DNA of 64,000 bases from an uncultured Clostridia bacterium (GTDB lineage Bacteria; Bacillota; Clostridia; Oscillospirales; JAAYOS01). Numbering within the stretch: the first letter of the stretch is position 1; the number at the start of each line of letters is the position of its first letter. Location of the stretch: positions 69,361-133,360 of the forward strand of contig CANRIN010000001.1 of NCBI GenBank assembly GCA_947630675.1, given 5' to 3'. Below are positions 6,282 through 54,310 of this stretch, one piece after another. Both the position numbers and the translations under genes were made by a program. The notes under the pieces are model-generated. The model did no database searches. It was not told the DNA's origin and saw nothing but the letters and a program-made list of their open reading frames with translations.

Positions 6282-6953
6282 TTTTCGCGGGAAATCGCGG
6301 GGGCAGACTTTGTCTGCCCCCTTACCAATTTCCCGCGAGAAGTTCACTTGAAATTGCGCCTGCGCAATTTCAAGTGAAGCTGTCGGATAGGGCAAAGCCC
6401 TACCGACAGCAAGCGCTCCGCTCTGCTCCTCGCGCCTGCGGCGCTTCGAAGCGCGCTACGCGAGAGGAGTTTTTCCGACGTACACGCCGTCGGAAAAAAC
6501 GGATTTGACTCTATTTCGCGCCGGAGGCGCGAAACTCTGCGAGGCTTGGTTGCGCCGCTCCGCCCTACAATGAGCTCAAGGTCGGGCAATATTCGCGAAG
6601 CGAATATTGCGGGCGAAAGCAGTAGAGTGCCGGATGCAGAACAGGTTTGCGCTTTCGCTGTTCGCAGCGGTTAAAGTTGCTTGCCATAGGCAAGCAACTT
6701 TGCGGAGCAAAATCACATTCAAGGTTTGGCTTTGCCCGCGAAGCGGGTAAAGCTCACGAGGGCTGATATGTTACGATGAGTAATATGTCGGCGCCCTCGT
6801 GTTTCCGAGCGAGCATTTCAATTAAATAAAAGGGTTCCCACGCGGTCGCCGACCGCGTGGGAATTGCGAAAGGGTGCGCAGGGCAATTCATTGCCCGAGC
6901 ACATTTCGCGCCGAAACTATAGCAAAAGGGAGGCCGTCGGCCTCCCTTTTGCT
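6282..6953. repeat. Mosaic of stacked hairpin modules (locus B), the most complete copy of the dispersed intergenic repeat family
   Basis: About 12 consecutive hairpins are present. Examples are CACTTGAAATTGCGC/GCGCAATTTCAAGTG, CAATATTCGCGAAGCGAATATTG, GTTGCTTGCCATAGGCAAGCAAC, GGCTTTGCCCGCGAAGCGGGTAAAGC, CACGAGGGC..GCCCTCGTG and CCCACGCGGTCGCCGACCGCGTGGG. The ~270-bp core at 6565-6830 recurs at 42825-43095 and 50640-51010. Confidence 0.85.
6299..6321 (+). terminator. Terminator-like hairpin after the permease gene
   Basis: GGGGGCAGA-CTTTG-TCTGCCCCC. There is no strong T-run. Confidence 0.45.
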
Positions 6954-19819: not shown

Positions 19820-20030
19820 GCGCCGCGACAGCGGCGCTCCGCTCTTATATTAAAATGCTCGGGGCGAACACGAGGGCGCCAACATATTCCGCATCGGAAC
19901 ACATGCAGCCCTCGTAAGCTTTGCCGCTTTGCGGCAAAGCCAAACACTGATGTCATTGCATGCGCGAAGTTAGCGGCGCAGCCGCTAACTTCAACCGCTG
20001 CGAACAGGCGCGGAGCGATCTCGCGGTCTG
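19820..20030. repeat. Partial, inverted copy of the hairpin-module repeat family (locus E)
   Basis: AAATGCTCGGGGCGAACACGAGGGCGCC...GCCCTCGTAAGCTTTGCCGCTTTGCGGCAAAGCC is the reverse complement of the second half of the 6700-6830 core. GAAGTTAGCGGCGCAGCCGCTAACTTC matches 50863-50890. Confidence 0.8.
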
Positions 20031-36892: not shown

Positions 36893-38407
36893 ATGCTTTT
36901 CAGGCGGGCGAAGCGCACTCATGCGGCAAGGCCGCAGAGCGTCGAGGAGCGGTACTCCTCGCTCACGCTTGCGAGCAGCGTCGAGGAAAACGAGCGAATC
37001 TTCCGCGAGGTGTTCCGCGGCGACGACACGATGATTTTCCGCCGGTTCGGGCCGGAGGGGATGTTTTTCATCATGCTCGTGGACGGCATGGTAAACGACG
37101 AGACGGTAAACGACAACATAGTCCGGCGGCTCGAGATAACTGTGAAGCCGGGGGATCCCGCACCGGAGATCGAGCGTGTCGAGCGGGAGATGGTGTCGAT
37201 AGCGGAGGTGAAGCGCACCGCAAAGATAATTGACATCTTCGACAGTCTGCTCTACGGCGACACGGTACTTCTTGCGGACGGCTCGAACGAGGCGCTGATA
37301 CTTTCAAGCAAGGGCTTCGAGCGGCGGAGTATCGGCGAGAGCCAGAACGAGAAGGGCATAAAGGGGCCGCAGGAGGCGTTCAGCGAGGCGTTCATGCCTA
37401 ACCTCGCTTTGATACGGAGAAAGCTCCGCGATCCCGCGCTGAAGTTCACCTTCCGCAAGATAGGCCGTGTCACCCGCACGAACGTCGTGCTCTGCTATAT
37501 CGACGGGGTCTGCGAAAAGGGTCTCGTCGAGGAGATAGAGGCGCGCCTTGACAAGATAGAGATAAACGGTATACTCGACTCCAACTATGTCTCCGAGCTT
37601 ATCTGCGACAGCCCCGGCTCGCCGTTCCGCACGGCCGGCTCTACCGAACGTCCGGACATCGTCGCGGCGAGACTTCTCGAGGGGCGCGCCGCCATAATAG
37701 TGGACGGCAGCCCGACGGTGCTCACCGTGCCGCACCTGCTCGTGGAATACTTCCAGAGCCAGAACGACTACTACCGCAGCTTCTGGGGCGCGTCGCTCTC
37801 GCGGATGCTGCGATATATCGGTTTTTTCGTGTCGGTGTCGGCGCCCGCGCTCTACACCGCCATACTCGGGTTCCACCCGGAGCTGCTGCCGACGACGTTG
37901 CTGATAAGCGTGGCGCGGGCGCGGCAGGGGGTGCTGATACCTACCGTGGCGGAGATGACATTTATGCTCCTCGCCCTCGAGATATTGCAGGAGGCGGGGC
38001 TCCGCGCCCCGCCGGCGATAGGGCAGTCGCTCTCGATAGTCGGAGGCCTGATACTCGGGCAGGCGGCGGTGGACGCGCGGATAGTCAGCGCGCCGGTGGT
38101 GATAGTCGTGGCGCTCTGGGCGGTGACGAATATGATGCTTCCGAACCTTCGGAGCCCCATAATCGTCATGACCTTTGTGCTGCTTGTGCTCTCCGGCGCG
38201 CTGGGACTCTACGGCTACTCGCTTGGGATGTGCGCGCTCGGCGTGCTGCTCGCGTCGATGCGCTCCTTCGGTGTGCCGTATACGGACTTTGCGGTGCCGT
38301 ATTCCTTCCGGGAGCTGCGCGACAGCGTCATACGCGCGCCGTGGCGCAGAATGGCGGTGAGGCCGTTTTCCCCGAAGCGCGGAGGTGAGCCGAGTGAGAG
38401 CGATTAA
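36893..38407 (+). CDS. Spore germination protein, GerA family A subunit
   Basis: 504 aa. LL.GDTVLL.DG...ALI......ERR.I.E...E..I.GP.EAF.E....N..LIRR.L......F. Confidence 0.85.
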   Translation: MLFRRAKRTHAARPQSVEERYSSLTLASSVEENERIFREVFRGDDTMIFRRFGPEGMFFIMLVDGMVNDETVNDNIVRRLEITVKPGDPAPEIERVEREMVSIAEVKRTAKIIDIFDSLLYGDTVLLADGSNEALILSSKGFERRSIGESQNEKGIKGPQEAFSEAFMPNLALIRRKLRDPALKFTFRKIGRVTRTNVVLCYIDGVCEKGLVEEIEARLDKIEINGILDSNYVSELICDSPGSPFRTAGSTERPDIVAARLLEGRAAIIVDGSPTVLTVPHLLVEYFQSQNDYYRSFWGASLSRMLRYIGFFVSVSAPALYTAILGFHPELLPTTLLISVARARQGVLIPTVAEMTFMLLALEILQEAGLRAPPAIGQSLSIVGGLILGQAAVDARIVSAPVVIVVALWAVTNMMLPNLRSPIIVMTFVLLVLSGALGLYGYSLGMCALGVLLASMRSFGVPYTDFAVPYSFRELRDSVIRAPWRRMAVRPFSPKRGGEPSESD

Positions 38408-39530
38408 GCGCATGGTGCCGGTGCTGCTTGCCGCGGGGATGCTCTTTGCCTCCGGCTGCGACTACACCGACCCCGACCGCATGGCGATAATCACCGGCGC
38501 GGCGATAGACCTCGCGGACGGGATGTACGAGCTCACGATAGAGTCGATAAAGGTGGAGGGCTCGTCGCTCGACGAGCCCATCGAGACGCAGATCTTTACG
38601 GCAGCGGGGCTTAGCCTCGACCTCGCGGAGGCCGAGCTGGAGCGGCTCACCGGCTCGCGGCTCTACTGGGGCCACGCGCAGGCGCTCGTCTTGAGTGAGG
38701 CGGCGGCGCGCGGAGCGCTGCCAGCGATACTGGACTGGGTCATGCGCTCGGGCGACCTGCGTCTCACGCTGGTGCTCGCGGTGAGCCGGTCGGGCAGCGC
38801 AAAGGAGATACTATCGAGCGACCCGTCCGGCTCCTACTCGGTGGCGAGCGCCATCGCGGGCGCGGCGCGGGACGGGGGCTTCTCCGAGCGCTTGGCGGGG
38901 GCGAGTACCCACAGAACACTCGAGGCGCTGCTCGACAACGGCGCCGCGCTGCTGCCCGCCGTCCGTCCGGCGGAGCAGGGAGAGGACAGGAGCTATGCGG
39001 TCCTTGACGGCGGGGCGGTGCTCGTCGGAGAGACGTTTGCCGGGTTTCTCAGCGAGGACGAGGCGCACGACATGCTCCTGCTCCTCGGTGCGGGTGAGAC
39101 GCGCGAGCTCATGCGCTTCGACGGCGGCGCGGTGGGTCTCAGGGTAGAGGACATAAGCTCCTCGGCGGCATTGTCCGCGGGTGCGGACGGCGCGCCGCTG
39201 CTCCGCGTGAGCGTGAGCGGCGGGTGCGTGATAGAGTATTTGGAAGGCGGCGCGGAGCAGCTAGACGAGGATATGGCGCACAAGCTGACGGACGCCGCGA
39301 GCGCGGCGCTCGCGCGGAGGATAGAGCGCGCCATAGCAGCGTCGCGCGCGCTCGGCGCAGACATCGCGGGCTTTGCCGAGCAGTTTGAAAAGAGTTACGG
39401 CGACGCTGCGTCCGACGCCGCTCTCACATCGGAGGTTGAGGTATCGGTCGAGCTCGAGATAACCGACACCGGGCTCATATCCCTTTCGCCCGCGTCGGGA
39501 GCGGACGGCATGGGGAGGCGGAACGGATGA
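38394..39530 (+). CDS. Ger(x)C-family germination lipoprotein
   Basis: Lipobox LLAAGMLFASGC, then D.....MAII.G.AID. The start is GTG 38394 after GGAGGTG (38385 is also in frame). Confidence 0.8.
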   Translation: MRAIKRMVPVLLAAGMLFASGCDYTDPDRMAIITGAAIDLADGMYELTIESIKVEGSSLDEPIETQIFTAAGLSLDLAEAELERLTGSRLYWGHAQALVLSEAAARGALPAILDWVMRSGDLRLTLVLAVSRSGSAKEILSSDPSGSYSVASAIAGAARDGGFSERLAGASTHRTLEALLDNGAALLPAVRPAEQGEDRSYAVLDGGAVLVGETFAGFLSEDEAHDMLLLLGAGETRELMRFDGGAVGLRVEDISSSAALSAGADGAPLLRVSVSGGCVIEYLEGGAEQLDEDMAHKLTDAASAALARRIERAIAASRALGADIAGFAEQFEKSYGDAASDAALTSEVEVSVELEITDTGLISLSPASGADGMGRRNG

Positions 39531-40585
39531 GGCACATAAGTCCGCGCGGCAGAGCCGTGCTCGTCGCGTGTTTTGTCGTGGGCGGCGGACTGCTCACCGG
39601 CGCGCCGAGCGGCTCGGAGGGAGCTGGATGGGCGAGCGCCGCAGTCGCGGCGCTCGCGGGTATGGCTGCGGCGTGGGCTGTGGCGCGGCTCGGATGCTCC
39701 GCGCCTGGAAGCGGTCTTGCGGAGGCCCTTGACCTCCGGTTCGGCCGCACCGCGTCCGCCGCGGTGAAAGTGGTCCTCTCCGCGATGACGGCGGGACTTC
39801 TGCTGCGTGATGCCGCCGTCATTACAAAGTTTGTCGGGGCCAACATGATGCCCGGTACGCCGGAGATGTTTATAGCGTTGAGCTTCGCGCTGACGGCGGC
39901 GTGGTGCGCCGCGGCGGGGCGCAGCGTCGTCGGCAGATGGGCGGAGCTTGTCGCCCTGCCGATGTTTCTCCTGCTGGCATTCGCGTTTGCACTCGCCGCG
40001 CGCGACTTCGGCGCGGACGCCGTGGAGGACGGCCTGCGGGAGGGCGCGGGAGGAATACTGCCGGGCGCGGTCGGGATATTCGCGGAGAGCTTCGGGTCGG
40101 TACTGGTCTGCTCTGCGGTGGTGTTCCCGTTCTCGTCGGACGAGAAGCATCCGGCGCTTCCGCTTGTCGTGGGTGCGGCGCTCGGAGGTGCGGTGCTCGC
40201 CGTCGTGATGCTGATGAACGTGGCGCTGCTCGGCAGCAGCACGATAGAGCTCTTCAACTTTCCGACCTACCACGCGCTTCGGGTGAGCGGCGTGGACGGC
40301 GTCCTCGAGCGAATGGAAGCGCTGCTGATGCTCCCCGCCGTGATGTTTGTCTTCCTTCGCGTCGCGGCGGAGCTGACCCTGTTTGCGGAGCTGGCGAAGA
40401 GCAGTGCGGCAAAGAAGCTTACGCCGTTCGTGATGGCGGCGGTCGCCGCGGCAGCGTCGCTTGCGGTGTTCCCGAGCCAGATCGAGCTGCGGGAGCACAC
40501 CGAGGCGGCCCTCGGGATATATGCCGCGCTGTGGGCGCTTATCGCCGTGCTGTTCGCCGCCGTCGGGCGGCGGAGAAGACGCTGA
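39527..40585 (+). CDS. Spore germination protein, GerAB/APC-permease-like B subunit
   Basis: 352 aa, about 10 TM helices. The ATGA overlap with the gerC-like stop gives an A-C-B gene order. Confidence 0.7.
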   Translation: MRHISPRGRAVLVACFVVGGGLLTGAPSGSEGAGWASAAVAALAGMAAAWAVARLGCSAPGSGLAEALDLRFGRTASAAVKVVLSAMTAGLLLRDAAVITKFVGANMMPGTPEMFIALSFALTAAWCAAAGRSVVGRWAELVALPMFLLLAFAFALAARDFGADAVEDGLREGAGGILPGAVGIFAESFGSVLVCSAVVFPFSSDEKHPALPLVVGAALGGAVLAVVMLMNVALLGSSTIELFNFPTYHALRVSGVDGVLERMEALLMLPAVMFVFLRVAAELTLFAELAKSSAAKKLTPFVMAAVAAAASLAVFPSQIELREHTEAALGIYAALWALIAVLFAAVGRRRRR

Positions 40586-40711
40586 AGCCGACGGCGTACG
40601 GTCTTCATTCCGAGGGACAGACTTTTTGCGCGAAGGTGCAAATTCATCTTCCGTGAGGAGAAGTTTTGTGCTACAATAGGCGGTAGAAAACTTTGTCCGG
40701 AGGGAACTGAC

Positions 40712-41800
40712 TTGAAGAGGATCATTTCTGCGATACTGCTGCTCGCGCTCTCCTGCACGCTCGCGTCCTGCTCGCTCGAGGAGGGGCGCGTGACAGGCAC
40801 GTCCCCGTCGCCTGCGGCAAGCTCCGCCGCACCGCTCGGCGAGCCGCCGATGCCCGCGGAGGAGCTTGGCGAGACGGTCATGGTCATTGACGGAGACGGC
40901 GTCACGATGGCGGAGGTCCGCTATCAGGCCGCGTCTCTCATGAGCGCGTACGAGTTCTACGGGGAGGGGAGCGTCGACTTCTCGGAGGAGCTGGAGGGCA
41001 AGCCCGCGGGCGACTTCTTTATAGACGAGGCCGTGAGCACCTGCATCCTGTTCCGCGCGGTGGAGAGATACGCAGCGGAGAACGGGTATGCGTTCACCGA
41101 AGAGGAGTACGACGATATATATGCGGAAATAGACGAGTATATCGAGCAGTGCGGCGGCCGGGATGCCTTCAACGAGCAGCTCGAGTACGCCGGTATGACG
41201 CCGAGCCTATACGAGTACCTTGTCGAGATACCGCGCCTCTATTATAAGATGTACGACGCGATATACGGCGAGGGCGGCGAGCATGAGATAACGGACGAGA
41301 CGGTACACAGCTACTTCGAGCAGAACTATATGACGACGCGGCACATCCTCAAGGCCGCCATCGACGAGAACGGCGACCCGCTGCCCGAAGCGGACGCCGA
41401 AAAGGTGCGCGCGGAGGCGGAAGCGCTTGCGGAGCGCGCCGCCTCGGGCGAAGACTTCGCGGCGCTTGCGGAGAGCGAGAGCGATGACGACGAGCTTCTG
41501 GGCGAGACGATAACCTTCGAGCTCTCCACCATGCCGGACGAGTACGTCGCGGCGGCGGAGGCGCTCGCGCCGGGCGAGGTGAGCGGCCCGGTGGACATCG
41601 GCGGCGCGTATGTCATAATACTCCGCGAGGAGCTGGACGAAGGGTATCTCGACGAGAACTTCGACGCGGTGTCGGAGGAGTACGGTCTCACGCAGTTCCG
41701 CGTGTACCTCGACGCGGTGTGCGAGACCCTGCCGGTCGAGAAGACCGACGCCTTCGCGACGGTAGACCCCGAGGAGATATACTCCGCGTTCTTCGGGTAA
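40712..41800 (+). CDS. PrsA-like foldase lipoprotein (SurA-N-like plus parvulin PPIase domain)
   Basis: TTG start after GGAGGGA. Lipobox LLLALSCTLASC. Parvulin-like TTRHILK....FAALAESESDD.....GE......M..E.V.AA.AL.PGEVSGPV...GAYVII. Confidence 0.65.
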   Translation: MKRIISAILLLALSCTLASCSLEEGRVTGTSPSPAASSAAPLGEPPMPAEELGETVMVIDGDGVTMAEVRYQAASLMSAYEFYGEGSVDFSEELEGKPAGDFFIDEAVSTCILFRAVERYAAENGYAFTEEEYDDIYAEIDEYIEQCGGRDAFNEQLEYAGMTPSLYEYLVEIPRLYYKMYDAIYGEGGEHEITDETVHSYFEQNYMTTRHILKAAIDENGDPLPEADAEKVRAEAEALAERAASGEDFAALAESESDDDELLGETITFELSTMPDEYVAAAEALAPGEVSGPVDIGGAYVIILREELDEGYLDENFDAVSEEYGLTQFRVYLDAVCETLPVEKTDAFATVDPEEIYSAFFG

Positions 41801-41816
41801 AAGTAGCTCCACAGAG

Positions 41817-41853
41817 ACAGCCGCCCGCCGCCAAAATGGTGACGGGCGGCTGT
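41817..41853 (+). terminator. Terminator hairpin
   Basis: ACAGCCGCCCG...CGGGCGGCTGT followed by TTGT. Confidence 0.5.
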
Positions 41854-41956
41854 TTGTGACGGATTGAACATTTCAATCGGAAAGGGACAGCGGCACTTTG
41901 CGCCGAGCTCCCGACACCGGTAAGCCGTATCATTTCTCTATATTCATTACTATGTA

Positions 41957-41985
41957 TTGACAATGTAATGATATTGTGTTACAAT
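41957..41985 (+). promoter_or_regulatory. Consensus sigma-A promoter of the TA locus with overlapping small palindromes (candidate antitoxin operators)
   Basis: TTGACA, 17 bp, TACAAT. The palindromes are ATTGACAAT (41956-64) and ATTGTgttACAAT (41973-85). Confidence 0.6.
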
Positions 41986-42010
41986 AGAAATGCCGAAAGG
42001 AGGTATCTCA

Positions 42011-42277
42011 ATGGCTCAGGTCAATCTTAATGTCCGCATGGATGAGGATGTCAAGCGCCGGTTCGACGAGTTTTGTGCCGAGGTCGGTATGAACGCCTCG
42101 GTCGCCATCAACCTTTTTGCTCGCACCGTCGTCCGCGAACAGCGCATCCCGTTCGAGATCACCGCTGACCCGTTCTACTCCTCCGCAAATATGGCTGCCC
42201 TTCGCCGCTCTATCGCCGAGCTGGACGCCGGGCGCGGTACTCCTCACGAGCTTGCGGAGGGCGGCGGCGATGACTAA
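42011..42277 (+). CDS. Type II antitoxin, RelB/DinJ family (RHH)
   Basis: MAQVNLNVRMDEDVKRRFDEFCAEVGMNASVAINLFARTVVREQRIPFEI. SD AAAGGAGG. Confidence 0.8.
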   Translation: MAQVNLNVRMDEDVKRRFDEFCAEVGMNASVAINLFARTVVREQRIPFEITADPFYSSANMAALRRSIAELDAGRGTPHELAEGGGDD

Positions 42278-42485
42278 AATCTGGTCCGACTCCGCGTGGG
42301 CGGACTACCTCGAGTGGCAGGTTTCCGACACGAAGACGCTGCGCCGTGTCAATGAGCTTATCCGTGACACGGAGCGCGACCCATTCCGAGGTCTCGGCAA
42401 GCCCGAACCGCTCAAGGGCGACCTCTCCGGATGGTGGAGCCAAATCCCACGCGGTCGGCGACCGCGTGGGAGCCCTTCCGATTAA
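42270..42485 (+). pseudogene. yoeB: Txe/YoeB-family toxin gene, 3'-truncated by the hairpin-repeat mosaic
   Basis: MTKIWSDSAWADYLEWQVSDTKTLRRVNELIRDTERDPFRGLGKPEPLKGDLSGWWS aligns with E. coli YoeB residues 1-57. From 42441 the frame runs into repeat sequence (CCCACGCGGTCGGCGACCGCGTGGG) and stops 14 codons later. Confidence 0.75.
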
Positions 42486-43237
42486 ACATGCTCGGGCGAA
42501 TGAATCGCCCTGCGCAAAATCGCCGCAAGCGGCGATATTTAACCGCGCGAACAGGCGCGGTGCGGCTTCGCCGCTTGTAACGCGCCCTCGCTCTTGAAAT
42601 CGCTCAATGCCGCACGCACTACAAATAATCAGGTCCGACCTCTTGGCGCGTTTCGAGCGAAGCGTCGCAACATCGCGGAGCCCAATTCCGTACTGTGTTC
42701 GGCTTTGCCGCGAAGCGGTAAAGCTCACGAGGGCTGAATATGTTCCGATGCAGAATTTGTGGGCGCCTCGTGTTCCGTACGAGCATTTCAATCAAAGGGG
42801 TCCCCAAACGGCGCTGTGCGCCGCACCGCCCTACAATGCGCTCAATGTCGGGCAATATTCGCGGAGCGAATATTGCAGGCGAAAGCAGTAGAGTGTCGGT
42901 TGAAGAACTGGTTTGCGCTTTCGCTGTTCGCACGGTTGAAGTTGCTTGCCAATGGCAAGCAACTTCGCGCAGGCAAATTCTGTACAGTGTTCGGCTTTGC
43001 CGCGAAGCGGCAAAGCTCACGAGGGCTGAATATATGCCGATGAGGAATATGTCGGCGCCCTCGTGTTCCGCACGAGCATTTAGATTTAAGGGGTCCCCAA
43101 ACGGCCTCTGGCCGTACCGCGCCGGTTCGCGCGGTTAAATTCGGCGCGAAGCGCCGAATTTGCGCAGGCGGAATTCATTTCCGCCGAGCATTTTAATCAA
43201 AAGGGGTCCCCAAACGGCCTCCGGCCGTTTGGGGAAA
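42441..43237. repeat. Largest mosaic of the hairpin-module repeat family (locus C)
   Basis: It contains one half copy (42690-42800) and one full copy (42825-43095) of the ~270-bp core, plus modules in a different order and orientation from locus B. There are three CCCCAAACGGC.. hairpin variants. Confidence 0.85.
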
Positions 43238-43276
43238 CCAGAACAAAAAGCAGCCAAAGGCTGCTTTTTGTTCTGG
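43238..43276. terminator. Terminator hairpin downstream of tRNA-Leu
   Basis: CCAGAACAAAAAGCAGCC-AAA-GGCTGCTTTTTGTTCTGG. Confidence 0.65.
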
Positions 43277-43360
43277 TACCGGAGACCGGGGTCGAACCGG
43301 CACGTCCTTGCGGACAGCGGATTTTAAGTCCGATGCGTCTACCAATTACGCCACTCCGGC
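43274..43360 (-). tRNA. tRNA-Leu (anticodon UAA)
   Basis: The reverse complement is GCCGGAGTGGCGTAATTGGTAGACGCATCGGACTTAAAATCCGCTGTCCGCAAGGACGTGCCGGTTCGACCCCGGTCTCCGGTACCA. It has a long variable arm, the CTTAAAA anticodon loop, and an encoded CCA. Confidence 0.9.
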
Positions 43361-43572
43361 ATATTCACGTTTTGCGCCCTGCCGTCCGAAGATTCCGGCG
43401 GCAAGCGTACCGCCCGGCGGAGTCCGGCTCCGCCGACGCTATTATACTTTACCACACGTGGCGGGCATTTGTCAACTTGGGGCGAGATGCGGCGGAAAAA
43501 TCAGTGGAAAAATCCGCGCCCGTGTGGTACAATTATCCTGTCATTATCGGATAAAATGCGGAGGTGGCTGAA

Positions 43573-44607
43573 ATGCCGTCGCTCGGTTATCTTTTCGGGC
43601 GGATACGCTCGATGAATACAAAAAACATGCGCCTCGCCGCAAGGCGTATCGCGAAGGAGGCGCACCGCCACGCGCTCTTTGTCCTCTCGGACATGGCGTG
43701 GTGCGGGTTCCGCTACGGCGCGGGATATATGGACTACGAGCTCTTCCGCTTCTGGGAGAAGAGCGGCCGTCAGCGCGCCACCTACCTCACGCGCGGACGC
43801 AACAACGAGTACGTCAAAGCCCTGAACGACCGGGAGTACTGGAAGCTCTTCGAGGATAAGCCGCTCTTTCTCGAGCGGTTCCGCGACTACTGCCCGCGCG
43901 AGTGGCTGGACATCCGCCATGCCGACGCGGACGAGCTCGAGCGGTTCGGTACGCGGCTCGGTGAGTTCATAGCAAAGCCTCCGGACGCGAGCCACGGGGA
44001 CGGCGTGGAGAAAATATCCGCCTCCGCCGTGGACGACTGGACGGCGCTCCACGCCCGCCTCACGGAGAGCGGTTCCACGCTCTGCGAGGAGGTCGTGCGG
44101 CAGCACGACGACGTGAACGCGATATGTCCCGGCTCGGTCAACACCGTGCGGTTCGTGACGCTCGTGAAGGACGGCGTGCCGCACATCGTCGCGGCCTACC
44201 TCCGCGTGGGCGGCGGGAAGAGGCCGGTGGACAACTTCAACGGCGGAGGAATGGTGACCGTCGTAAACCGTGAGACCGGCGTGATACTCTATCCAGCCGT
44301 CGCGAAGGCCGGCGTGGTGTATGCGGAGCATCCCGTGACCGGTAAGCATTTTGCGGGGACGCAGCTTCCGATGTGGGAGGATTGCCGCGAATTCGTCCTC
44401 CGCGCCGCCGTGGAGGTGCCGGAGGTGAAGTACGTCGGCTGGGACGTTGCGATAACGCCGGAGGGACCGACCTTCGTGGAGGGGAACCACTACCCCGGCC
44501 ACGACATCTACGGCCTCGAGCCGCATTCGCCGGACGGGTGCGGCGTGCTGCCCGACTGGGAGGCCGTCTACACCCTGAAAGAGCTGAAGAGGATACGGAA
44601 GAAATAG
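43573..44607 (+). CDS. Sugar-transfer-associated ATP-grasp family protein
   Basis: 344 aa. N-terminal region ...DMAWCGFRYGAGYMDYELFRF......R.TY.T...N......LN, and an ATP-grasp core (..KP.D.S.G.GV.K......VN.VR.VT.....G...N...GG). Confidence 0.65.
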   Translation: MPSLGYLFGRIRSMNTKNMRLAARRIAKEAHRHALFVLSDMAWCGFRYGAGYMDYELFRFWEKSGRQRATYLTRGRNNEYVKALNDREYWKLFEDKPLFLERFRDYCPREWLDIRHADADELERFGTRLGEFIAKPPDASHGDGVEKISASAVDDWTALHARLTESGSTLCEEVVRQHDDVNAICPGSVNTVRFVTLVKDGVPHIVAAYLRVGGGKRPVDNFNGGGMVTVVNRETGVILYPAVAKAGVVYAEHPVTGKHFAGTQLPMWEDCREFVLRAAVEVPEVKYVGWDVAITPEGPTFVEGNHYPGHDIYGLEPHSPDGCGVLPDWEAVYTLKELKRIRKK

Positions 44608-44618
44608 GAGAGACTACG

Positions 44619-45347
44619 ATGGAATACCTTTCACAGGCGGCGCTCGATCTGCTCGTGGAGAACCGGCTGAGCGACTCCAAGCAGTTCTACGAGGAGCACA
44701 AGCCGGAGATAGAACGGCTCGTCCGCGAGCCGATGTTTGAAATTATCGAGGAAGTCGTGCCGGTCCTGCAAAAGCTCGACCCGGAGATAATCCTCGCGCC
44801 GAAGCGGCAGATCTCGCGGATACGCCGGGACACGCGGTTCACAAACGACAAGTCGCTCTACCGTGCGAACGTCTGGTGCTGGCTCGGCAGGGACAAGCGC
44901 GAGTACGACAACTTTCCTCGCTTCTTCTTTGAGGTCACTCCGGGATACGTCTGGTGGGGCTGCGGGCTGTACTTTGCGGACGGCGCGATGTTTGACAGCT
45001 ACCGCGAGATGATACTCTCGCGCGACCCGCTGTTCCTCGCGGCAAAGGAGTCGCTCGAGGGGCAGAAGCGCTTCCGGCTCGACACGGACGATATGTTCAA
45101 GCGGACGAAGTATCCGTCCGAACCGGAGGACATACGCGTGTGGCTCGACCGAAAGTCGATATACGTCTCGCACACCGAGAACTATGTCTCGATAGCGTTC
45201 GGCGATAAGCTCGTCCGCGCGCTCAAGCGTGACTTCCCGAAGCTGAAGGCGTACTACCGCTTCCTTACGGCCGCCTACGAGCGGAGAAAGACGCCGGAGA
45301 CGCTGCGCCCCTGGTCCCCGCACAGGACGGAGGACGACGAGTGGTGA
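44619..45347 (+). CDS. DUF2461 (TIGR02453) family protein
   Basis: ...L..N....W....K..YE..V..P......E........D......PK..ISRI.RDTRF..DKS.Y. Confidence 0.75.
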   Translation: MEYLSQAALDLLVENRLSDSKQFYEEHKPEIERLVREPMFEIIEEVVPVLQKLDPEIILAPKRQISRIRRDTRFTNDKSLYRANVWCWLGRDKREYDNFPRFFFEVTPGYVWWGCGLYFADGAMFDSYREMILSRDPLFLAAKESLEGQKRFRLDTDDMFKRTKYPSEPEDIRVWLDRKSIYVSHTENYVSIAFGDKLVRALKRDFPKLKAYYRFLTAAYERRKTPETLRPWSPHRTEDDEW

Positions 45348-45387
45348 CCGGCCCGTCGCAGGCCGCATCTGACAAAGGAACGAGTTT

Positions 45388-45963
45388 ATGGTGGAAATAG
45401 TCATACTTGCCGTGATCGCCGCGCTCTCGGCATGGAAGTCGCGTGAGTTTGCGCGGCAGGGCGTGCGCGGGATGTGCGCGGCGGCGATACTCACGGCGCT
45501 CGCGAGCCTCGGGCGCGCGCTGTTTGCGGGCATACCCTCGGTCCAGCCCGCGAGCTTTATAATAATGCTCTGCGGCGCGGCGCTCGGCGGAGGCGCGGGG
45601 CTGTACTGCGGGATACTTACGGCTGTGCTCTCGAACCTGCTGATAGGCTCGGTAGGGCCGTATACCGTGTGGCAGATGTTCTTCTGGGGCGTGATGGGTC
45701 TCTTGTCGCCCCGCCCGATGAATGCCGGCGCCGCGGTGAGGACGATATACGGCTTTGCGTGGGGCTTTGTCTTCGGATGGGGAATGAACCTCTGGTATCC
45801 GCTCGCGGGATTCATCCCGCTGAATGCGGTGAGCTTCCTCACCTCCTGCGTGTCGAGCTTCACCTTCGACCTCGCGCATGCGGCGACGAACGCCGCCCTC
45901 TGTCTCGCCGCGGGCGGGACGAGCATGCGCCTTGTGATGAAATTGGTGAGGCGGGACGGCTGA
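45388..45963 (+). CDS. Small polytopic membrane protein, probably an ECF-transporter S component
   Basis: 191 aa, 5-6 TM. ...IPSVQPASFIIML.G...G...G...G.LT...SNLL.G.GP.T.WQMF.WG..G. Confidence 0.5.
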   Translation: MVEIVILAVIAALSAWKSREFARQGVRGMCAAAILTALASLGRALFAGIPSVQPASFIIMLCGAALGGGAGLYCGILTAVLSNLLIGSVGPYTVWQMFFWGVMGLLSPRPMNAGAAVRTIYGFAWGFVFGWGMNLWYPLAGFIPLNAVSFLTSCVSSFTFDLAHAATNAALCLAAGGTSMRLVMKLVRRDG

Positions 45964-46051
45964 AAAAAGCATTGCATTACGCCCGCATAAGTTGTATCAT
46001 AATAGAAGAAACTGACATGGGCCGGGCGGACTTTTCCGCAAACCGAAGGGA

Positions 46052-47323
46052 GTGAGCAGAGACGTGGAGAAGATAACGAAGCGCAGCGCGTTTCTTATAA
46101 ATCTGCTGTACTTTGCCGCGGTGGTCGGGATCGTCCTGCTGGTGCTCCGCTACGCGGTGCCGTGGCTCATGCCCTTCATAATAGGCTTTGCCGTTGCCAT
46201 GATATTCCACCCGCTCATACGCTGGACGGCAAAGAAGCTGCACGCCCCGCGCAAGGCGGTCGCGTGCGTGATAGTCCTGCTCGGCTATGTGATACTCATA
46301 ACCGGCGTGGTGTTCGGCACCATCGAGATAGTCACGCTCCTCAGCGAATTCTTCCGTGGGCTGCCGGACTTCTTCCGCGAAAACATCCTGCCGACGATAA
46401 ATCAGATAGGCAACGTCTTCGAGGGATTCTACGACAACCTTCCGCCCGACTGGGTGGCGACGATACAGACCTTCAGCGGCAGCCTGACCTCCGCCGTGGC
46501 CGACTTCGTGGCGGGGATATCCTCAAGCGGCGTCAACTTCCTCACGGGGTTCATAAGCGCGCTGCCGGGATTCCTGATAGCGCTGGTGTTCACGGTGCTT
46601 GCGAGCTTCTTCATCACAATGAACTACGACCGCACGAAGAACTTCCTCATGGCGCAGCTGAACGAGAGGATGCAGGAGATAGTCCGCGCGGTGAAGACGG
46701 CGTTCAAGGACACGGTCTTTGCATACTTCCGTGCGTACTTCAAGCTGATGGCGCTCACCTTTGTGGAGCTCGCGGTGGGACTGCTGATAATCGGCATCGA
46801 CAACGCGGTGGGCATAGCTTTCGGAATAGCGATATTCGACGTGCTGCCGGTGTTCGGAACGGGCGGCATCGTCATCCCGTGGATAGTCATAGACTTCCTC
46901 GTCGGAAACACCTTCGAGGCGGTGGGGCTGCTCGTGATGTACGGCATAATCACGGTGGTCCGCAACTTTGTGGAGCCTAAGGTGGTGGGCGACCAGCTCG
47001 GGCTCGACCCGGTGGTCTCGATAATCGCCATCTACCTCGGATTTGTGTGGTTCGGCGTCTTCGGCATGATAATAATGCCGATAGCGGTCCAGATAGCCTG
47101 CTCGCTGCACAGAGAGGGAACGATAACTCTCTACCGCGACCCGCCTCCGCTCGAGGAAGAGACGTCCTCGAAGGAAAAGAAGAGCAAGGCGCGGGCGGAG
47201 AAGCGCCGCGCAAAGGACGCTCCGTCGTCTGCGGGCGGCGCTCCGGAGACCGCAGAGCGGGACGGCGCCGGCAGTGTTGAATCGGACGAAATAAACGTAA
47301 GCAAAGAAGAAGGGAAGGACTGA
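46052..47323 (+). CDS. ytvI: Sporulation integral membrane protein YtvI (AI-2E/PerM family)
   Basis: 423 aa. ...PW.MPFIIGF..A....P.I......L...R..A...V........., with a C-terminal charged tail. The start is uncertain (GTG 46052 or 46064). Confidence 0.75.
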   Translation: MSRDVEKITKRSAFLINLLYFAAVVGIVLLVLRYAVPWLMPFIIGFAVAMIFHPLIRWTAKKLHAPRKAVACVIVLLGYVILITGVVFGTIEIVTLLSEFFRGLPDFFRENILPTINQIGNVFEGFYDNLPPDWVATIQTFSGSLTSAVADFVAGISSSGVNFLTGFISALPGFLIALVFTVLASFFITMNYDRTKNFLMAQLNERMQEIVRAVKTAFKDTVFAYFRAYFKLMALTFVELAVGLLIIGIDNAVGIAFGIAIFDVLPVFGTGGIVIPWIVIDFLVGNTFEAVGLLVMYGIITVVRNFVEPKVVGDQLGLDPVVSIIAIYLGFVWFGVFGMIIMPIAVQIACSLHREGTITLYRDPPPLEEETSSKEKKSKARAEKRRAKDAPSSAGGAPETAERDGAGSVESDEINVSKEEGKD

Positions 47324-47395
47324 CGTCCTTCCCTTCTTTACGAAACGCGCGCTTTCGTTCCTCGAACGGTTTGTAACGTCCGTGCAAATGAATAT

Positions 47396-50603: not shown

Positions 50604-50604
50604 C

Positions 50605-51050
50605 CGCCGCTCGGATGATACAATGCCCCCAAACGGCGCTTTCGCGTCGTTCCGCTCTATAACGTGCTCAATGTCGGGCAATATTTGCAAAGCAAATATT
50701 GCGGGCGAAAGCAGTAGCGTGTCGGATGAAGAATAGGTTTGCCCTGTCTGTTATTCAGAGTTGGGCTCTGCTTGCAAAGCAAGCAGAGCTGGCGAGGGCA
50801 GTATAATGTCAGAATAAGGAAAAAGTTGAAGCCCTCGCGCTCGCTTGTTTCGCAGCGGTTGAAGTTAGCGGCGGAGCCGCTAACTTCGCGCAGGCGAATT
50901 ATATCAATGTCCGGCTTTGCCCGCGAAGCGGGTAAAGCTCACGAGGGCTGAAAGTGTTCCGATGAGGAATATGTCGGCGCCCTCGTGTTCGGGAGCGAGC
51001 ATTTCAATCGGAAGGGGCCCCAAACGGCGCTTTCGCGCCGTTTGGGGGGA
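50605..51050. repeat. Copy of the hairpin-module mosaic (locus D) with extra internal modules
   Basis: The core ends match loci B and C (GTCGGGCAATATTTGCAAAGCAAATATTGCGGGCGAAAGCAGTAG... and ...GGCTTTGCCCGCGAAGCGGGTAAAGCTCACGAGGGC..GCCCTCGTG..GAGCATTTCAATCGG). The middle carries additional hairpins (CTCTGCTTGCAAAGCAAGCAGAG, GAAGTTAGCGGCGGAGCCGCTAACTTC). Confidence 0.85.
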
Positions 51051-53999: not shown

Positions 54000-54037
54000 A
54001 TTCTTTCTCCCACGGCAGATGTTGTAACAGCGTTGGA

Positions 54038-54310
54038 TCAAATATAATAGCCGTTCTGCGGCTATTATAGCATATCGCGGAGCGATATGCTATAAGTGCC
54101 ATGTTTTGCGGTTCCGCCCGAAAGGGCGGGAGCAAAACGGCATTAAATCAAATATAATAGCCGTTCTGCGGCTATTATAGCATATCGCGAAGCGATATGC
54201 TATAAGTGCCATGTTTTGCGGTTCCGCCCGAAAGGGCGGGAGCAAAACGGCATTAAATCAATTATAATAGCCGCTCTGCGGCTATTATAGCATATCGCGG
54301 AGCGATATGC
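54038..54310. repeat. Tandem array, about 2.5 copies of a 110-bp three-hairpin unit
   Basis: Period 110 (AATATAATAG at 54041 and 54151, ATTATAATAG at 54261). The unit is TATAATAGCCG-TTCTG-CGGCTATTATA + CATATCGCG(G/A)AGCGATATG + GTTTTGCGGTTCCGCCC-GAAA-GGGCGGGAGCAAAAC. The copies are more than 95% identical. Confidence 0.9.

What the first reader, a model, noticed from the sequence alone, without database searches (positions are those of the whole stretch)
42011..42520. relB/dinJ-yoeB toxin-antitoxin locus in which the repeat mosaic has removed the toxin's catalytic C-terminus
The antitoxin gene (42011-42277), its consensus promoter and two promoter-overlapping palindromes look intact. The overlapping toxin ORF aligns with YoeB/Txe up to the LSGWWS motif, equivalent to E. 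coli YoeB residue 57. Exactly at 42441 the sequence becomes the CCCACGCGGTCGGCGACCGCGTGGG repeat module. The region that would hold the catalytic Arg65, His83 and Tyr84 equivalents is absent. This is a clear example of the hairpin-repeat family acting as an insertional or recombinational mutagen. It leaves an orphan antitoxin that could still act as a transcription factor or as anti-addiction protection against incoming yoeB plasmids or phages.
Basis: partly seen in the sequence, partly recalled or inferred. Interest (0 to 1): 0.65.

Follow-up and report, generated by a model that had tools for sequence, protein, structure and literature searches.

The report
Toxin gene split by hairpin repeat
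A two-gene toxin-antitoxin module has had its YoeB toxin gene broken by a 147-base hairpin-rich repeat, while the antitoxin gene and its promoter stay intact. This is an ordinary kind of gene decay, but here the breakpoints are mapped to the base against intact copies in related bacteria.

Summary
Positions 42011-42277 encode an intact RelB/DinJ antitoxin behind a near-consensus promoter. The overlapping 71-aa ORF matches YoeB only over residues 1-57. From 42442 the sequence is a member of the window's hairpin-repeat family.

The interpretation needs one correction: the C-terminus was not removed. An intact syntenic allele (85 aa, L083, about 90% nt identity) shows that 147 nt of repeat (42442-42588) replaced 46 nt, which are codons 58-73 and include Arg59, Glu63 and Arg65. 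The last 12 codons plus the stop (ALEIAQCRTHYK*, with His83 and Tyr84) survive at 42590-42628, shifted by +2 and untranslated. The toxin is a pseudogene.

The state is polymorphic. Intact and disrupted alleles both occur at this chromosomal site and in a roughly 90%-identical copy of the cassette next to a phage tape-measure gene. A second repeat version, 75% identical to the first, sits at the same codon there. Flanking variation is almost all synonymous and groups by genomic context rather than by insertion state. So the disruptions are either recent and recurrent, or one event spread by recombination.

Whether the orphan antitoxin still functions is plausible but untested. This is a new member of a known kind, of modest interest.

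The parts
41944..41971 (.). Operator-like inverted repeat (TCATTACTATGT / ACAATGTAATGA) overlapping the -35 hexamer
   Evidence: 12-nt arms, 83% complementary, 4 nt apart. Function as an operator is inferred, not tested.
41957..41985 (+). Sigma-70-type promoter TTGACA-17-TACAAT with TG extension. A short palindrome ATTGTgttACAAT (41973-41985) overlaps the -10.
   Evidence: 11 of 12 matches; palindrome read.
41996..42003 (+). Ribosome-binding site AAAGGAGG, 7 nt before the antitoxin ATG
   Evidence: sequence read
42011..42277 (+). Intact RelB/DinJ-family antitoxin gene (88 aa)
   Evidence: Pfam PF04221 at 2.1e-11. 95-100% identical proteins occur in other assemblies. dN/dS is 0.03-0.09 between alleles.
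42270..42441 (+). 5' part of yoeB (codons 1-57, Glu46 retained). The start overlaps the antitoxin stop. The ORF runs on into the repeat and stops at 42485 (71 aa).
   Evidence: Pfam PF06769 profile 1-54 of 80. HMM built from 52 full-length neighbours matches positions 1-58 at 83.6 bits. Synteny with L083 breaks at 42441.
42442..42588 (+). 147-nt multi-hairpin repeat element that replaced 46 nt of yoeB (codons 58-73). Hairpin 1 is at 42446-42470.
   Evidence: Alignment with intact alleles. Family copies at 6830-6866, 43111-43210 and elsewhere. Folds as single-stranded DNA at -49.5 kcal/mol, z = -5.6.
42589..42628 (+). 3' remnant of yoeB. Codons 74-85 (ALEIAQCRTHYK) are at 42590-42625 and the stop at 42626-42628. 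The frame is +2 relative to the 5' part. The His83 and Tyr84 codons are at 42617-42622.
   Evidence: HMM positions 74-85, 13.4 bits, E = 0.008 over the six-frame window; the next best hit scores 3.2 bits. Peptide identical to intact P0002.
42645..42677 (-). End of the first downstream repeat unit. It is an imperfect inverted repeat of the 3' end of the intragenic element (42556-42586).
   Evidence: 24 of 33 matches, shuffle p = 0.0025. The same tail lies after the stop codon in intact L083.
42629..43235 (.). Repeat mosaic filling the space between yoeB and tRNA-Leu. It is about 796 nt counting the intragenic unit, against 248 nt in L083.
43274..43360 (-). tRNA-Leu(taa), the right border of the variable slot

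Best explanation
The locus is a RelB/DinJ-YoeB type II toxin-antitoxin cassette (window 41940-42628) whose toxin gene is a pseudogene.

A 147-nt unit of the genome's modular hairpin-repeat family was inserted at codon 58 of yoeB and replaced 46 nt (codons 58-73, RRINGEHRLVYRVKDG in the intact allele). This removed Arg59, Glu63 and Arg65 and shifted the frame by +2. The last 12 codons, which hold the general acid His83 and Tyr84, are still in the DNA but are no longer translated. The translated product has 57 YoeB residues plus 14 residues read from the repeat. It cannot form the RNase active site.

The antitoxin gene, its RBS, its promoter and the inverted repeats over that promoter are untouched. 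The cell most likely still makes an autoregulated antitoxin with no partner toxin at this locus.

Shown: the anatomy, both breakpoints, the intact ancestor-like allele, that the insert belongs to the repeat family, and that the state is polymorphic. Inferred: loss of toxicity (from published YoeB mechanism), continued expression and function of the antitoxin, and the molecular route of insertion.
For: - Domains: Pfam RelB on 42011-42277; YoeB_toxin covers only profile positions 1-54 of 80 on the 71-aa ORF.
- Intact syntenic allele: P0002, 85 aa, in L083/L084. It has the same upstream rotamase gene, the same 88-aa antitoxin and the same downstream tRNA-Leu. Nucleotide identity is 89-91%, and the alignment stops at window 42441 and resumes at 43238.
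- Base-level alignment: 147 nt in the window stand in place of 46 nt in L083.
- C-terminal remnant: a YoeB HMM built from 52 full-length neighbours gives a second hit at 42590-42625 (positions 74-85, E = 0.008, next best 3.2 bits). Its peptide ALEIAQCRTHYK* is identical to the intact alleles.
- Residue numbering: P0002 aligns without gaps to E. coli YoeB 2a6q residues 2-84, so numbering carries over.
- Catalytic roles: Glu46 and His83 are the general base and acid. Arg65 and Tyr84 stabilise the transition state, and Y84A abolishes activity (PMC3814384).
- Insert identity: it shares hairpin 1 and the conserved linkers with copies at 6830-6866, 43111-43210, L083, L118 and L121. It folds into successive hairpins with z = -5.6.
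- Not an assembly artefact: L081, from another sample, is 100% identical over 1570 nt spanning the whole insert. L091 and L092 carry the same junction.
- Further decay in a disrupted allele: L086 has an extra TGG>TAG nonsense codon.
Against: - The toxin flanks do not look neutral. Window versus L085 shows 14 synonymous against 5 nonsynonymous differences (p = 3e-6 against neutrality), and every difference in the 3' remnant is at a third codon position. This fits a recent disruption or flanks refreshed by recombination. Taken alone, it could also suggest that the pieces are still under selection.
- No expression data exist for either gene.
- No experiment shows that the 71-aa product is harmless.
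- Antitoxin dN/dS is low (0.03-0.09), but most of that divergence probably accumulated while the toxin was intact. It does not prove selection on the orphan.
Confidence: 0.88

Rival explanations
1. History A: two or more independent insertions. The repeat family hit the same codon of yoeB separately in the chromosomal cassette (W-type, 147 nt) and in the phage-associated cassette (L-type, 156 nt). This would imply a site preference or selection for toxin loss.
For: - The left junctions differ by 2 nt: GGAGCC|AAAT against GGAGCCGC|AATT.
- 46 nt are replaced in one case and 44 nt in the other, so the frames differ.
- W and L are only 75% identical, no closer than each is to extragenic copies at 78%.
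- The flanks group by genomic context. The 3' remnant shows 2 differences for window-L083 (intact), 2 for L085-L090 (intact) and 6 for window-L085.
- Intact L090 differs from disrupted L088 at 3 of 431 left-flank positions.
- Flank differences are overwhelmingly synonymous.
- Extragenic copies with the same head exist as possible sources: L121 14225-14390 and window 6830-6866.
Against: - Two events that remove almost the same 44-46 nt and leave right-hand tails of equal length (25 nt to the junction, 18 of 25 identical) would be a striking coincidence.
- The replaced gene segment has only a 6-bp hairpin, and its fold z-scores are not significant. No clear target signal was found.
Confidence: 0.45
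2. History B: one old insertion-deletion. Homologous recombination then moved it between allele backgrounds, including between phage-borne and chromosomal cassettes. The inner hairpins of the insert were overwritten by conversion from other repeat copies.
For: - The insertion site and deleted segment are the same to within 2 nt, and the tails are homologous.
- W and L share the head (CAAWT, a CCCACGCGG hairpin, AGCCCTTCCGATT) and the A variant of hairpin 4, which most other copies lack.
- L085 and L088 differ at 17 of 431 flank positions but at 0 of the first 62 nt of the insert. This suggests the insert travels across backgrounds.
- L091 looks like a recombinant between window-like and L088-like haplotypes.
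Against: - The synonymous-only divergence of the toxin flanks requires that they were repeatedly replaced from intact alleles right up to the insert.
- L091 has 1.4x coverage and may be an assembly chimera.
Confidence: 0.43
3. One reading: recombination with the repeat mosaic deleted the whole 3' end of yoeB, so the catalytic C-terminus is absent from the DNA.
For: The translated product does end in repeat-derived residues, and the repeat mosaic continues for about 600 nt downstream.
Against: Codons 74-85 plus the stop are present at 42590-42628. Their peptide is identical to the intact alleles, and the downstream flank is shared with L083.
Confidence: 0.03
4. The 71-aa protein is a genuine short YoeB-like variant that is conserved and active.
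For: A second 71-aa protein with the same tail exists (P0246).
Against: - P0246 comes from L091, which carries the identical insert.
- Other disrupted alleles have a different tail (RNSHAGGPAREPF...) or a premature stop.
- Of the 120 best homologues, all but three are 84-95 aa.
- Arg65, His83 and Tyr84 are missing from the product.
Confidence: 0.02

Closest known systems
YefM-YoeB / Axe-Txe type II toxin-antitoxin systems (E. coli YoeB, PDB 2A6Q)
   Same: The intact allele P0002 aligns without gaps to E. coli YoeB residues 2-84 (5e-33), with Glu46, Arg59, Glu63, Arg65, His83 and Tyr84 conserved. The genes are small and overlapping, with the antitoxin first, behind a promoter carrying inverted repeats.
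   Different: The antitoxin is of the RelB/DinJ family (PF04221), not YefM/Phd. This pairing is common among the Firmicutes-type loci fetched (52 full-length YoeB neighbours). In the window the toxin is interrupted and inactive.
Toxin pseudogenes and orphan antitoxins in bacterial chromosomes (degenerate TA loci, the anti-addiction idea)
   Same: The toxin is inactivated while the antitoxin and promoter stay intact. A closely related cassette occurs on a mobile element, in a phage tail region.
   Different: Both breakpoints and the surviving 3' fragment are mapped to the base, and intact and disrupted alleles coexist in two genomic contexts. Neutralisation of a foreign toxin has not been shown. 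This comparison rests on general knowledge of the field; reviews were seen only as titles.
Small interspersed hairpin repeats of bacteria (REP/BIME of enterobacteria, BOX/RUP of pneumococci, Correia elements, Rickettsia palindromic elements)
   Same: The repeats are short, non-coding, multi-copy, modular and hairpin-forming. They are mostly intergenic, their copy number varies between close relatives, and they occasionally land inside genes.
   Different: - No sequence or Rfam relationship to any described family was found.
- The architecture is conserved single-stranded linkers between hairpins whose stems covary (13 of 23 pairs).
- At one orthologous site the units are bounded by a 23-nt partial copy of a terminator-like hairpin rather than by a short target duplication.
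- No transposase link was examined.
- The resemblance to the named families is recalled from memory, not tested.

Membership tests
YoeB/Txe toxin (Pfam PF06769) | Significant match to the family profile | tested here: met
   2.7e-21, 75.8 bits against a cut-off of 27
YoeB/Txe toxin (Pfam PF06769) | Full-length domain (about 84 aa, complete RelE/YoeB fold) | tested here: not met
   Only profile positions 1-54 of 80 are matched in the ORF. HMM positions 59-73 are missing from the DNA, and positions 74-85 are in another frame.
YoeB/Txe toxin (Pfam PF06769) | Catalytic residues Glu46, Arg65, His83 and Tyr84 in one polypeptide | tested here: not met
   Glu46 is present. Arg65 (with Arg59 and Glu63) is deleted. 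The His83 and Tyr84 codons at 42617-42622 are untranslated.
YoeB/Txe toxin (Pfam PF06769) | Ribosome-dependent mRNA cleavage or growth inhibition | not testable with these tools
   Needs expression and cleavage assays.
RelB/DinJ antitoxin (Pfam PF04221) | Profile match above the curated cut-off, full length | tested here: met
   2.1e-11, 44 bits against 22.4; residues 6-76 match profile positions 4-69 of 82
RelB/DinJ antitoxin (Pfam PF04221) | Encoded directly upstream of, and overlapping, a RelE-superfamily toxin gene | tested here: met
   ATGACTAA overlap at 42270-42277. The same arrangement is seen in 50+ related loci.
RelB/DinJ antitoxin (Pfam PF04221) | Binds its own promoter and neutralises the toxin | not testable with these tools
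   Inverted repeats over the -35 and -10 are present. Binding was not tested.
Orphan antitoxin acting as anti-addiction or immunity factor | A cognate intact toxin on a mobile element that meets the same cell | tested here: inconclusive
   The intact allele L090 sits in a cassette whose antitoxin is 95% identical, next to a phage tape-measure gene. No second yoeB lies in the window. Co-occurrence in one genome is not shown.
MITE / REP-like interspersed repeat | Multiple dispersed copies with shared sequence | tested here: met
   Copies at about 6359-6920, 19844-20007, 42442-43235 and 50604-51050, and in L083, L118 and L121
MITE / REP-like interspersed repeat | Presence/absence polymorphism at orthologous sites | tested here: met
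   yoeB is intact or filled. The 50.6-kb site holds one, two or more units in L118, L121 and the window.
MITE / REP-like interspersed repeat | Terminal inverted repeats and short target-site duplication (classical MITE) | tested here: not met
   The yoeB insert has no duplication; 46 nt were lost instead. At the 50.6-kb site the flanking repeat is a 23-nt partial hairpin copy.
MITE / REP-like interspersed repeat | Cognate transposase (for example a RAYT/IS200-type enzyme) | not tested
   Not searched for.

The most novel reading that the evidence does not exclude
The same codon of yoeB was hit independently, in the chromosomal cassette and in a phage-borne copy, by a hairpin repeat with a real site preference. 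The chromosomal cell keeps the orphan antitoxin, which is 95% identical to the phage-borne one, because it neutralises the intact YoeB brought in by that phage. On this reading a repeat element repeatedly converts an addiction module into an immunity gene.
Probability: 0.15. Interest if true: 0.6.

Novelty: new member of a known kind. Interest (0 to 1): 0.33.

Why it matters
It is a clean, base-resolved example of how a small non-coding repeat can inactivate a toxin gene while sparing the antitoxin. Intact and broken alleles coexist in nature, both on the chromosome and next to phage genes. That makes it a convenient natural system for two questions: do orphan antitoxins persist because they protect against related mobile toxins, and does this uncharacterised hairpin-repeat family choose its targets? 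In itself, a decayed toxin-antitoxin locus is common and changes no current view.

Tried and rejected
- **Genome-contig scan with the antitoxin.** The best relative was only 64% identical, so it gave no close allele. It did supply 52 full-length YoeB neighbours for an HMM.
- **JGI metagenome scan for the exact left flank.** No match.
- **Viral-contig scan for a 16-mer of the repeat head.** It gave 17 hits. By my own rough estimate that is about what chance would give for a collection of this size, and none was followed up. It was not used.
- **Rfam at a permissive threshold on 41800-43400.** Only the tRNA was credible; no known RNA family matched the repeats.
- **Literature search for the linker sequence.** The single hit, a paper on an unrelated E. 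coli topic, was not opened and is presumed coincidental.
- **Look-up of an L083-encoded protein to extend that contig.** I got round this through the cluster of a window protein.
- **Idea that the replaced gene segment is a hairpin target.** There is only a 6-bp stem, and the fold z-scores are -0.5 and +0.4, so it is not supported.
- **Idea that the missing middle of YoeB is encoded in another frame of the insert.** All three frames were read and none resembles RRINGEHRLVYRVKDG.
- **Splicing or ribosomal bypass restoring the toxin.** It cannot restore codons 58-73, which are absent from the DNA.
- **Phage and plasmid collections searched with the cassette DNA.** No close relative; only short conserved-core matches to other yoeB genes.
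- **dN/dS as proof that the orphan antitoxin is under selection.** Rejected as uninformative, because the divergence probably predates the disruption.
Full report
**What is in the sequence**

The region reads as a compact two-gene operon.
- A near-consensus promoter (TTGACA, 17 nt, TACAAT, preceded by TG) lies at 41957-41985.
- A 12-nt inverted repeat (41944-41955 / 41960-41971) straddles the -35. A short palindrome, ATTGTgttACAAT, covers the -10 (read).
- The RBS AAAGGAGG is at 41996-42003, followed by an 88-aa ORF at 42011-42277. That ORF matches Pfam RelB at 2.1e-11.
- A second ORF starts at 42270, inside the antitoxin's last codons, and runs to 42485 (71 aa). It matches Pfam YoeB_toxin at 2.7e-21, but only over profile positions 1-54 of 80.
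- E. coli YoeB residues 1-58 align to 42270-43443's counterpart 42270-42443.
It recurs at 6837-6861, where none is expected by chance.

**The intact allele and the breakpoints**

A protein search with the 71-aa product found an 85-aa relative, P0002: MTKIWSDSAWADYLEWQDADSKMLRRVNELIRDTERDPFRGLGKPEPLKGDLSGWWSRRINGEHRLVYRVKDGALEIAQCRTHYK.

Its contig (L083, GCA_947585215.1; also L084) is syntenic with the window. It has the same 362-aa rotamase gene upstream, the same 88-aa antitoxin and the same tRNA-Leu(taa) downstream. Nucleotide identity is 89-91%. L083 1-5172 aligns to window 37257-42441, and L083 5421-9557 aligns to window 43238-47373.

The base-level alignment gives the following.
- After GGTGGAGCC (ending at 42441), the window carries 147 nt (42442-42588).
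- In that place the intact gene has 46 nt (GCCGTATCAACGGCGAACACCGCCTTGTCTACCGCGTAAAGGACGG, codons 58-73).
- Homology then resumes with CGCTCTTGAAATCGC...CACTACAAATAA.
- The net change of +101 nt shifts the frame by +2.

**The C-terminus is still there**

I built an HMM from 52 full-length YoeB genes that lie next to related antitoxins and searched the six-frame translation of the whole window. There were two hits.
- The 5' part matches positions 1-58 at 83.6 bits.
- 42590-42625 matches positions 74-85 at 13.4 bits, E = 0.008.
- The next best hit anywhere in the window scores 3.2 bits.

The peptide at the second hit, ALEIAQCRTHYK followed by a stop, is identical to the end of P0002. P0002 aligns without gaps to E. 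coli YoeB (2a6q) residues 2-84, so E. coli numbering applies. On that numbering:
- Glu46 is retained in the 71-aa product.
- Arg59, Glu63 and Arg65 lie in the deleted 46 nt.
- The His83 and Tyr84 codons survive at 42617-42622 but are not translated.

Published structural work assigns Glu46 and His83 as general base and acid, and gives Arg65 and Tyr84 roles in stabilising the transition state. Y84A abolishes activity (PMC3814384). The toxin is therefore inactive by inference from established mechanism.

The event is an insertion with replacement, not removal of the 3' end.

**The inserted DNA**

The 147 nt fold into successive hairpins (-49.5 kcal/mol as DNA, z = -5.6, no shuffle as stable). 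They share modules with other copies in the window (6830-6866, 43111-43210, and related longer units at 19844-20007, 42640-43110 and 50604-51050) and in related genomes.

The common plan of the unit is:
1. a head (CAAWT) and a variable hairpin;
2. a conserved linker (CCCTTYYGATTRAAATGCTCG);
3. hairpin 2;
4. CTSCGCRAA;
5. hairpin 3;
6. TTYAA;
7. an invariant hairpin 4 (CCGCGCGAACNGGCGCGG);
8. a further hairpin and a tail.

In six short-form copies, 13 of 23 predicted pairs show changes on both sides that keep the pair.

Rfam has no matching family.

The 3' end of the intragenic unit (42556-42586) is an imperfect inverted repeat of the sequence just past the yoeB stop (42645-42677; 24 of 33 matches, shuffle p = 0.0025). 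That downstream sequence is the end of an element that is also present, in the same inverted orientation, after the intact gene in L083.

**It is real and polymorphic**

L081, from a different metagenome sample, is 100% identical to window 41744-43313. L092 and L091 carry the same junction. An assembly artefact is therefore excluded.

Looking up members of the antitoxin clusters showed the cassette (window 41940-42628) in two genomic settings.
- **Context A** is the window's: rotamase, cassette, repeats, tRNA-Leu. It has intact alleles (L083, L084) and the window-type disruption, called W.
- **Context B** lies next to a phage tape-measure gene (L086, L088; Pfam PhageMin_Tail and SPP1_Dit, PHROG tail families). 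It has an intact allele (L090, 85 aa...RRIDGEHRLVYRVKDGALEIAQCRTHYK) and a second type of disruption, called L (L085, L086, L088, L089).

In the L type, 156 nt replace 44 nt at the same place. The junction is GGAGCCGC|AATT, against GGAGCC|AAAT in W. L086 has in addition a TGG>TAG nonsense codon.

**One event or several?**

*Evidence for independent events.*
- W and L are 75% identical, no closer than each is to extragenic copies at 78%.
- The flanks group by context rather than by state. The 3' remnant differs at 2 positions between the window and intact L083, at 2 between L085 and intact L090, and at 6 between the window and L085. All of these differences are at third codon positions.
- The left flank of intact L090 differs from disrupted L088 at 3 of 431 positions.
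- Across the toxin flanks, the window and L085 differ by 14 synonymous and 5 nonsynonymous changes (p = 3e-6 against neutrality). Most divergence therefore accumulated in working genes.

*Evidence for a single event.*
- The deleted segment is the same to within 2 nt.
- The right-hand tails are of equal length and homologous.
- W and L share a head and a hairpin-4 variant that most other copies lack.
- L085 and L088 differ at 17 flank positions but at none in the first 62 nt of the insert. This suggests the insert moves between backgrounds by recombination.

I cannot decide between recurrent targeting and a single event spread by recombination. I rate them about equally likely.

A test of the simplest targeting idea, that the replaced segment is an unusual hairpin, was negative.

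**The wider setting**

Two further genomes at about 89-90% nucleotide identity to the window (L118; L121/L122) have no cassette between the rotamase gene and tRNA-Leu. Instead they carry an AT-rich gene that is DMP19-like (PF14300) in L122 (the identical stretch in L118 was not called as a gene), followed by repeats. L121/L122 also have the neighbouring gene block inverted. The slot is therefore a variable islet and the cassette is accessory DNA.

At another repeat locus (window 50604-51050), the orthologous sites hold different numbers of units. Each unit is bounded by a 23-nt partial copy of a terminator-like hairpin.

**The antitoxin**

The antitoxin is intact in every allele seen. Between alleles, dN/dS is 0.03-0.09 at dS of about 0.5. 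Because the disruptions look recent relative to that divergence, this does not show selection on the orphan state.

No second yoeB lies in the window. The phage-associated cassette has an antitoxin 95% identical to the window's and, in L090, an intact toxin. Co-occurrence in one cell is not shown.

**Comparison with what is known, and verdict**

- The toxin fragment belongs to the YoeB family by sequence, but it fails the tests for a functional member: full domain, and Arg65, His83 and Tyr84 in one chain.
- The antitoxin passes the sequence tests for RelB/DinJ.
- The insert behaves like the small interspersed hairpin repeats known from other bacteria. It matches no described family, and it lacks classical MITE ends and target duplications at this site.
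- No close relative of the cassette is present in the deposited phage or plasmid collections.

A toxin gene disabled by a repeat, leaving an orphan antitoxin, is a known kind of event. The added value here is the exact anatomy, the surviving 3' fragment, and the polymorphism in two contexts with the same codon affected.

I rate the interest as modest (0.33) and the novelty as a new member of a known kind.

Noticed in passing
window 41801-43273; L118 3046-3978; L121/L122 1809-2425: The slot between the rotamase gene and tRNA-Leu(taa) is a variable islet. It holds the toxin-antitoxin cassette in the window and L083. In L118 and L122 it holds an AT-rich gene (DMP19-like, PF14300, in L122). In L121/L122 the adjacent ATP-grasp to AI-2E transporter block is inverted.
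   Followed up: partly
L086 4742-5229; L088 3001-3493; L090 722-1238; L085 53-680: A copy of the cassette about 90% identical in nucleotides, promoter included, lies next to a phage tape-measure gene. It occurs with both intact and repeat-disrupted toxin alleles.
   Followed up: partly
window 50604-51050; L118 10670-10830; L121 10670-11120: At orthologous sites the repeat units sit inside a terminator-like hairpin (TCCCCAAACGGCGCTTTTGCGCCGTTTGGGGA). Each unit is bounded by a 23-nt partial copy of that hairpin. The number and type of units differ among three genomes that are about 90% identical.
   Followed up: partly
window 42470-42562, 43115-43209; L083 5308-5398; L085 512-608; L118 10700-10796; L121 14267-14356: In the short-form repeat body, hairpins 2 and 3 change sequence while keeping their pairing (13 of 23 pairs have double changes in six copies). 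Hairpin 4 and the linkers are nearly invariant. No Rfam family matches.
   Followed up: partly
L110 649-900; L113 649-900; L112 1-126: The linker CCCTTTTGATTGAAATGCTCG, followed by a GGGCGAA(G)TGAATTCGCCC hairpin and CTGCGCAAA, also occurs in metagenome contigs with different GC content (63% and 47%). The repeat's core module may therefore be widespread.
   Followed up: no
window 54037-54310: A separate 110-nt tandem repeat (2.5 copies, 97% identical) lies between the uracil-DNA glycosylase and RlmL-like genes. It is absent from the orthologous site in L118. L121 has a hairpin-repeat unit there with the same head as the yoeB insert.
   Followed up: partly
L087 300-328; L117 732-816: Two other odd alleles of the L083-type cassette were seen. 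L087 has a 28-nt substituted patch over the antitoxin stop and toxin start. In L117 the last 7 toxin codons are replaced by unrelated DNA. Both come from contigs with about 2x coverage and may be assembly chimeras.
   Followed up: partly
L091 41-825: This contig is identical to the window at both ends and across the insert. It carries 32 differences of the phage-context haplotype between positions 108 and 373 of the cassette. It is either a natural recombinant or a chimera (1.4x coverage).
   Followed up: partly
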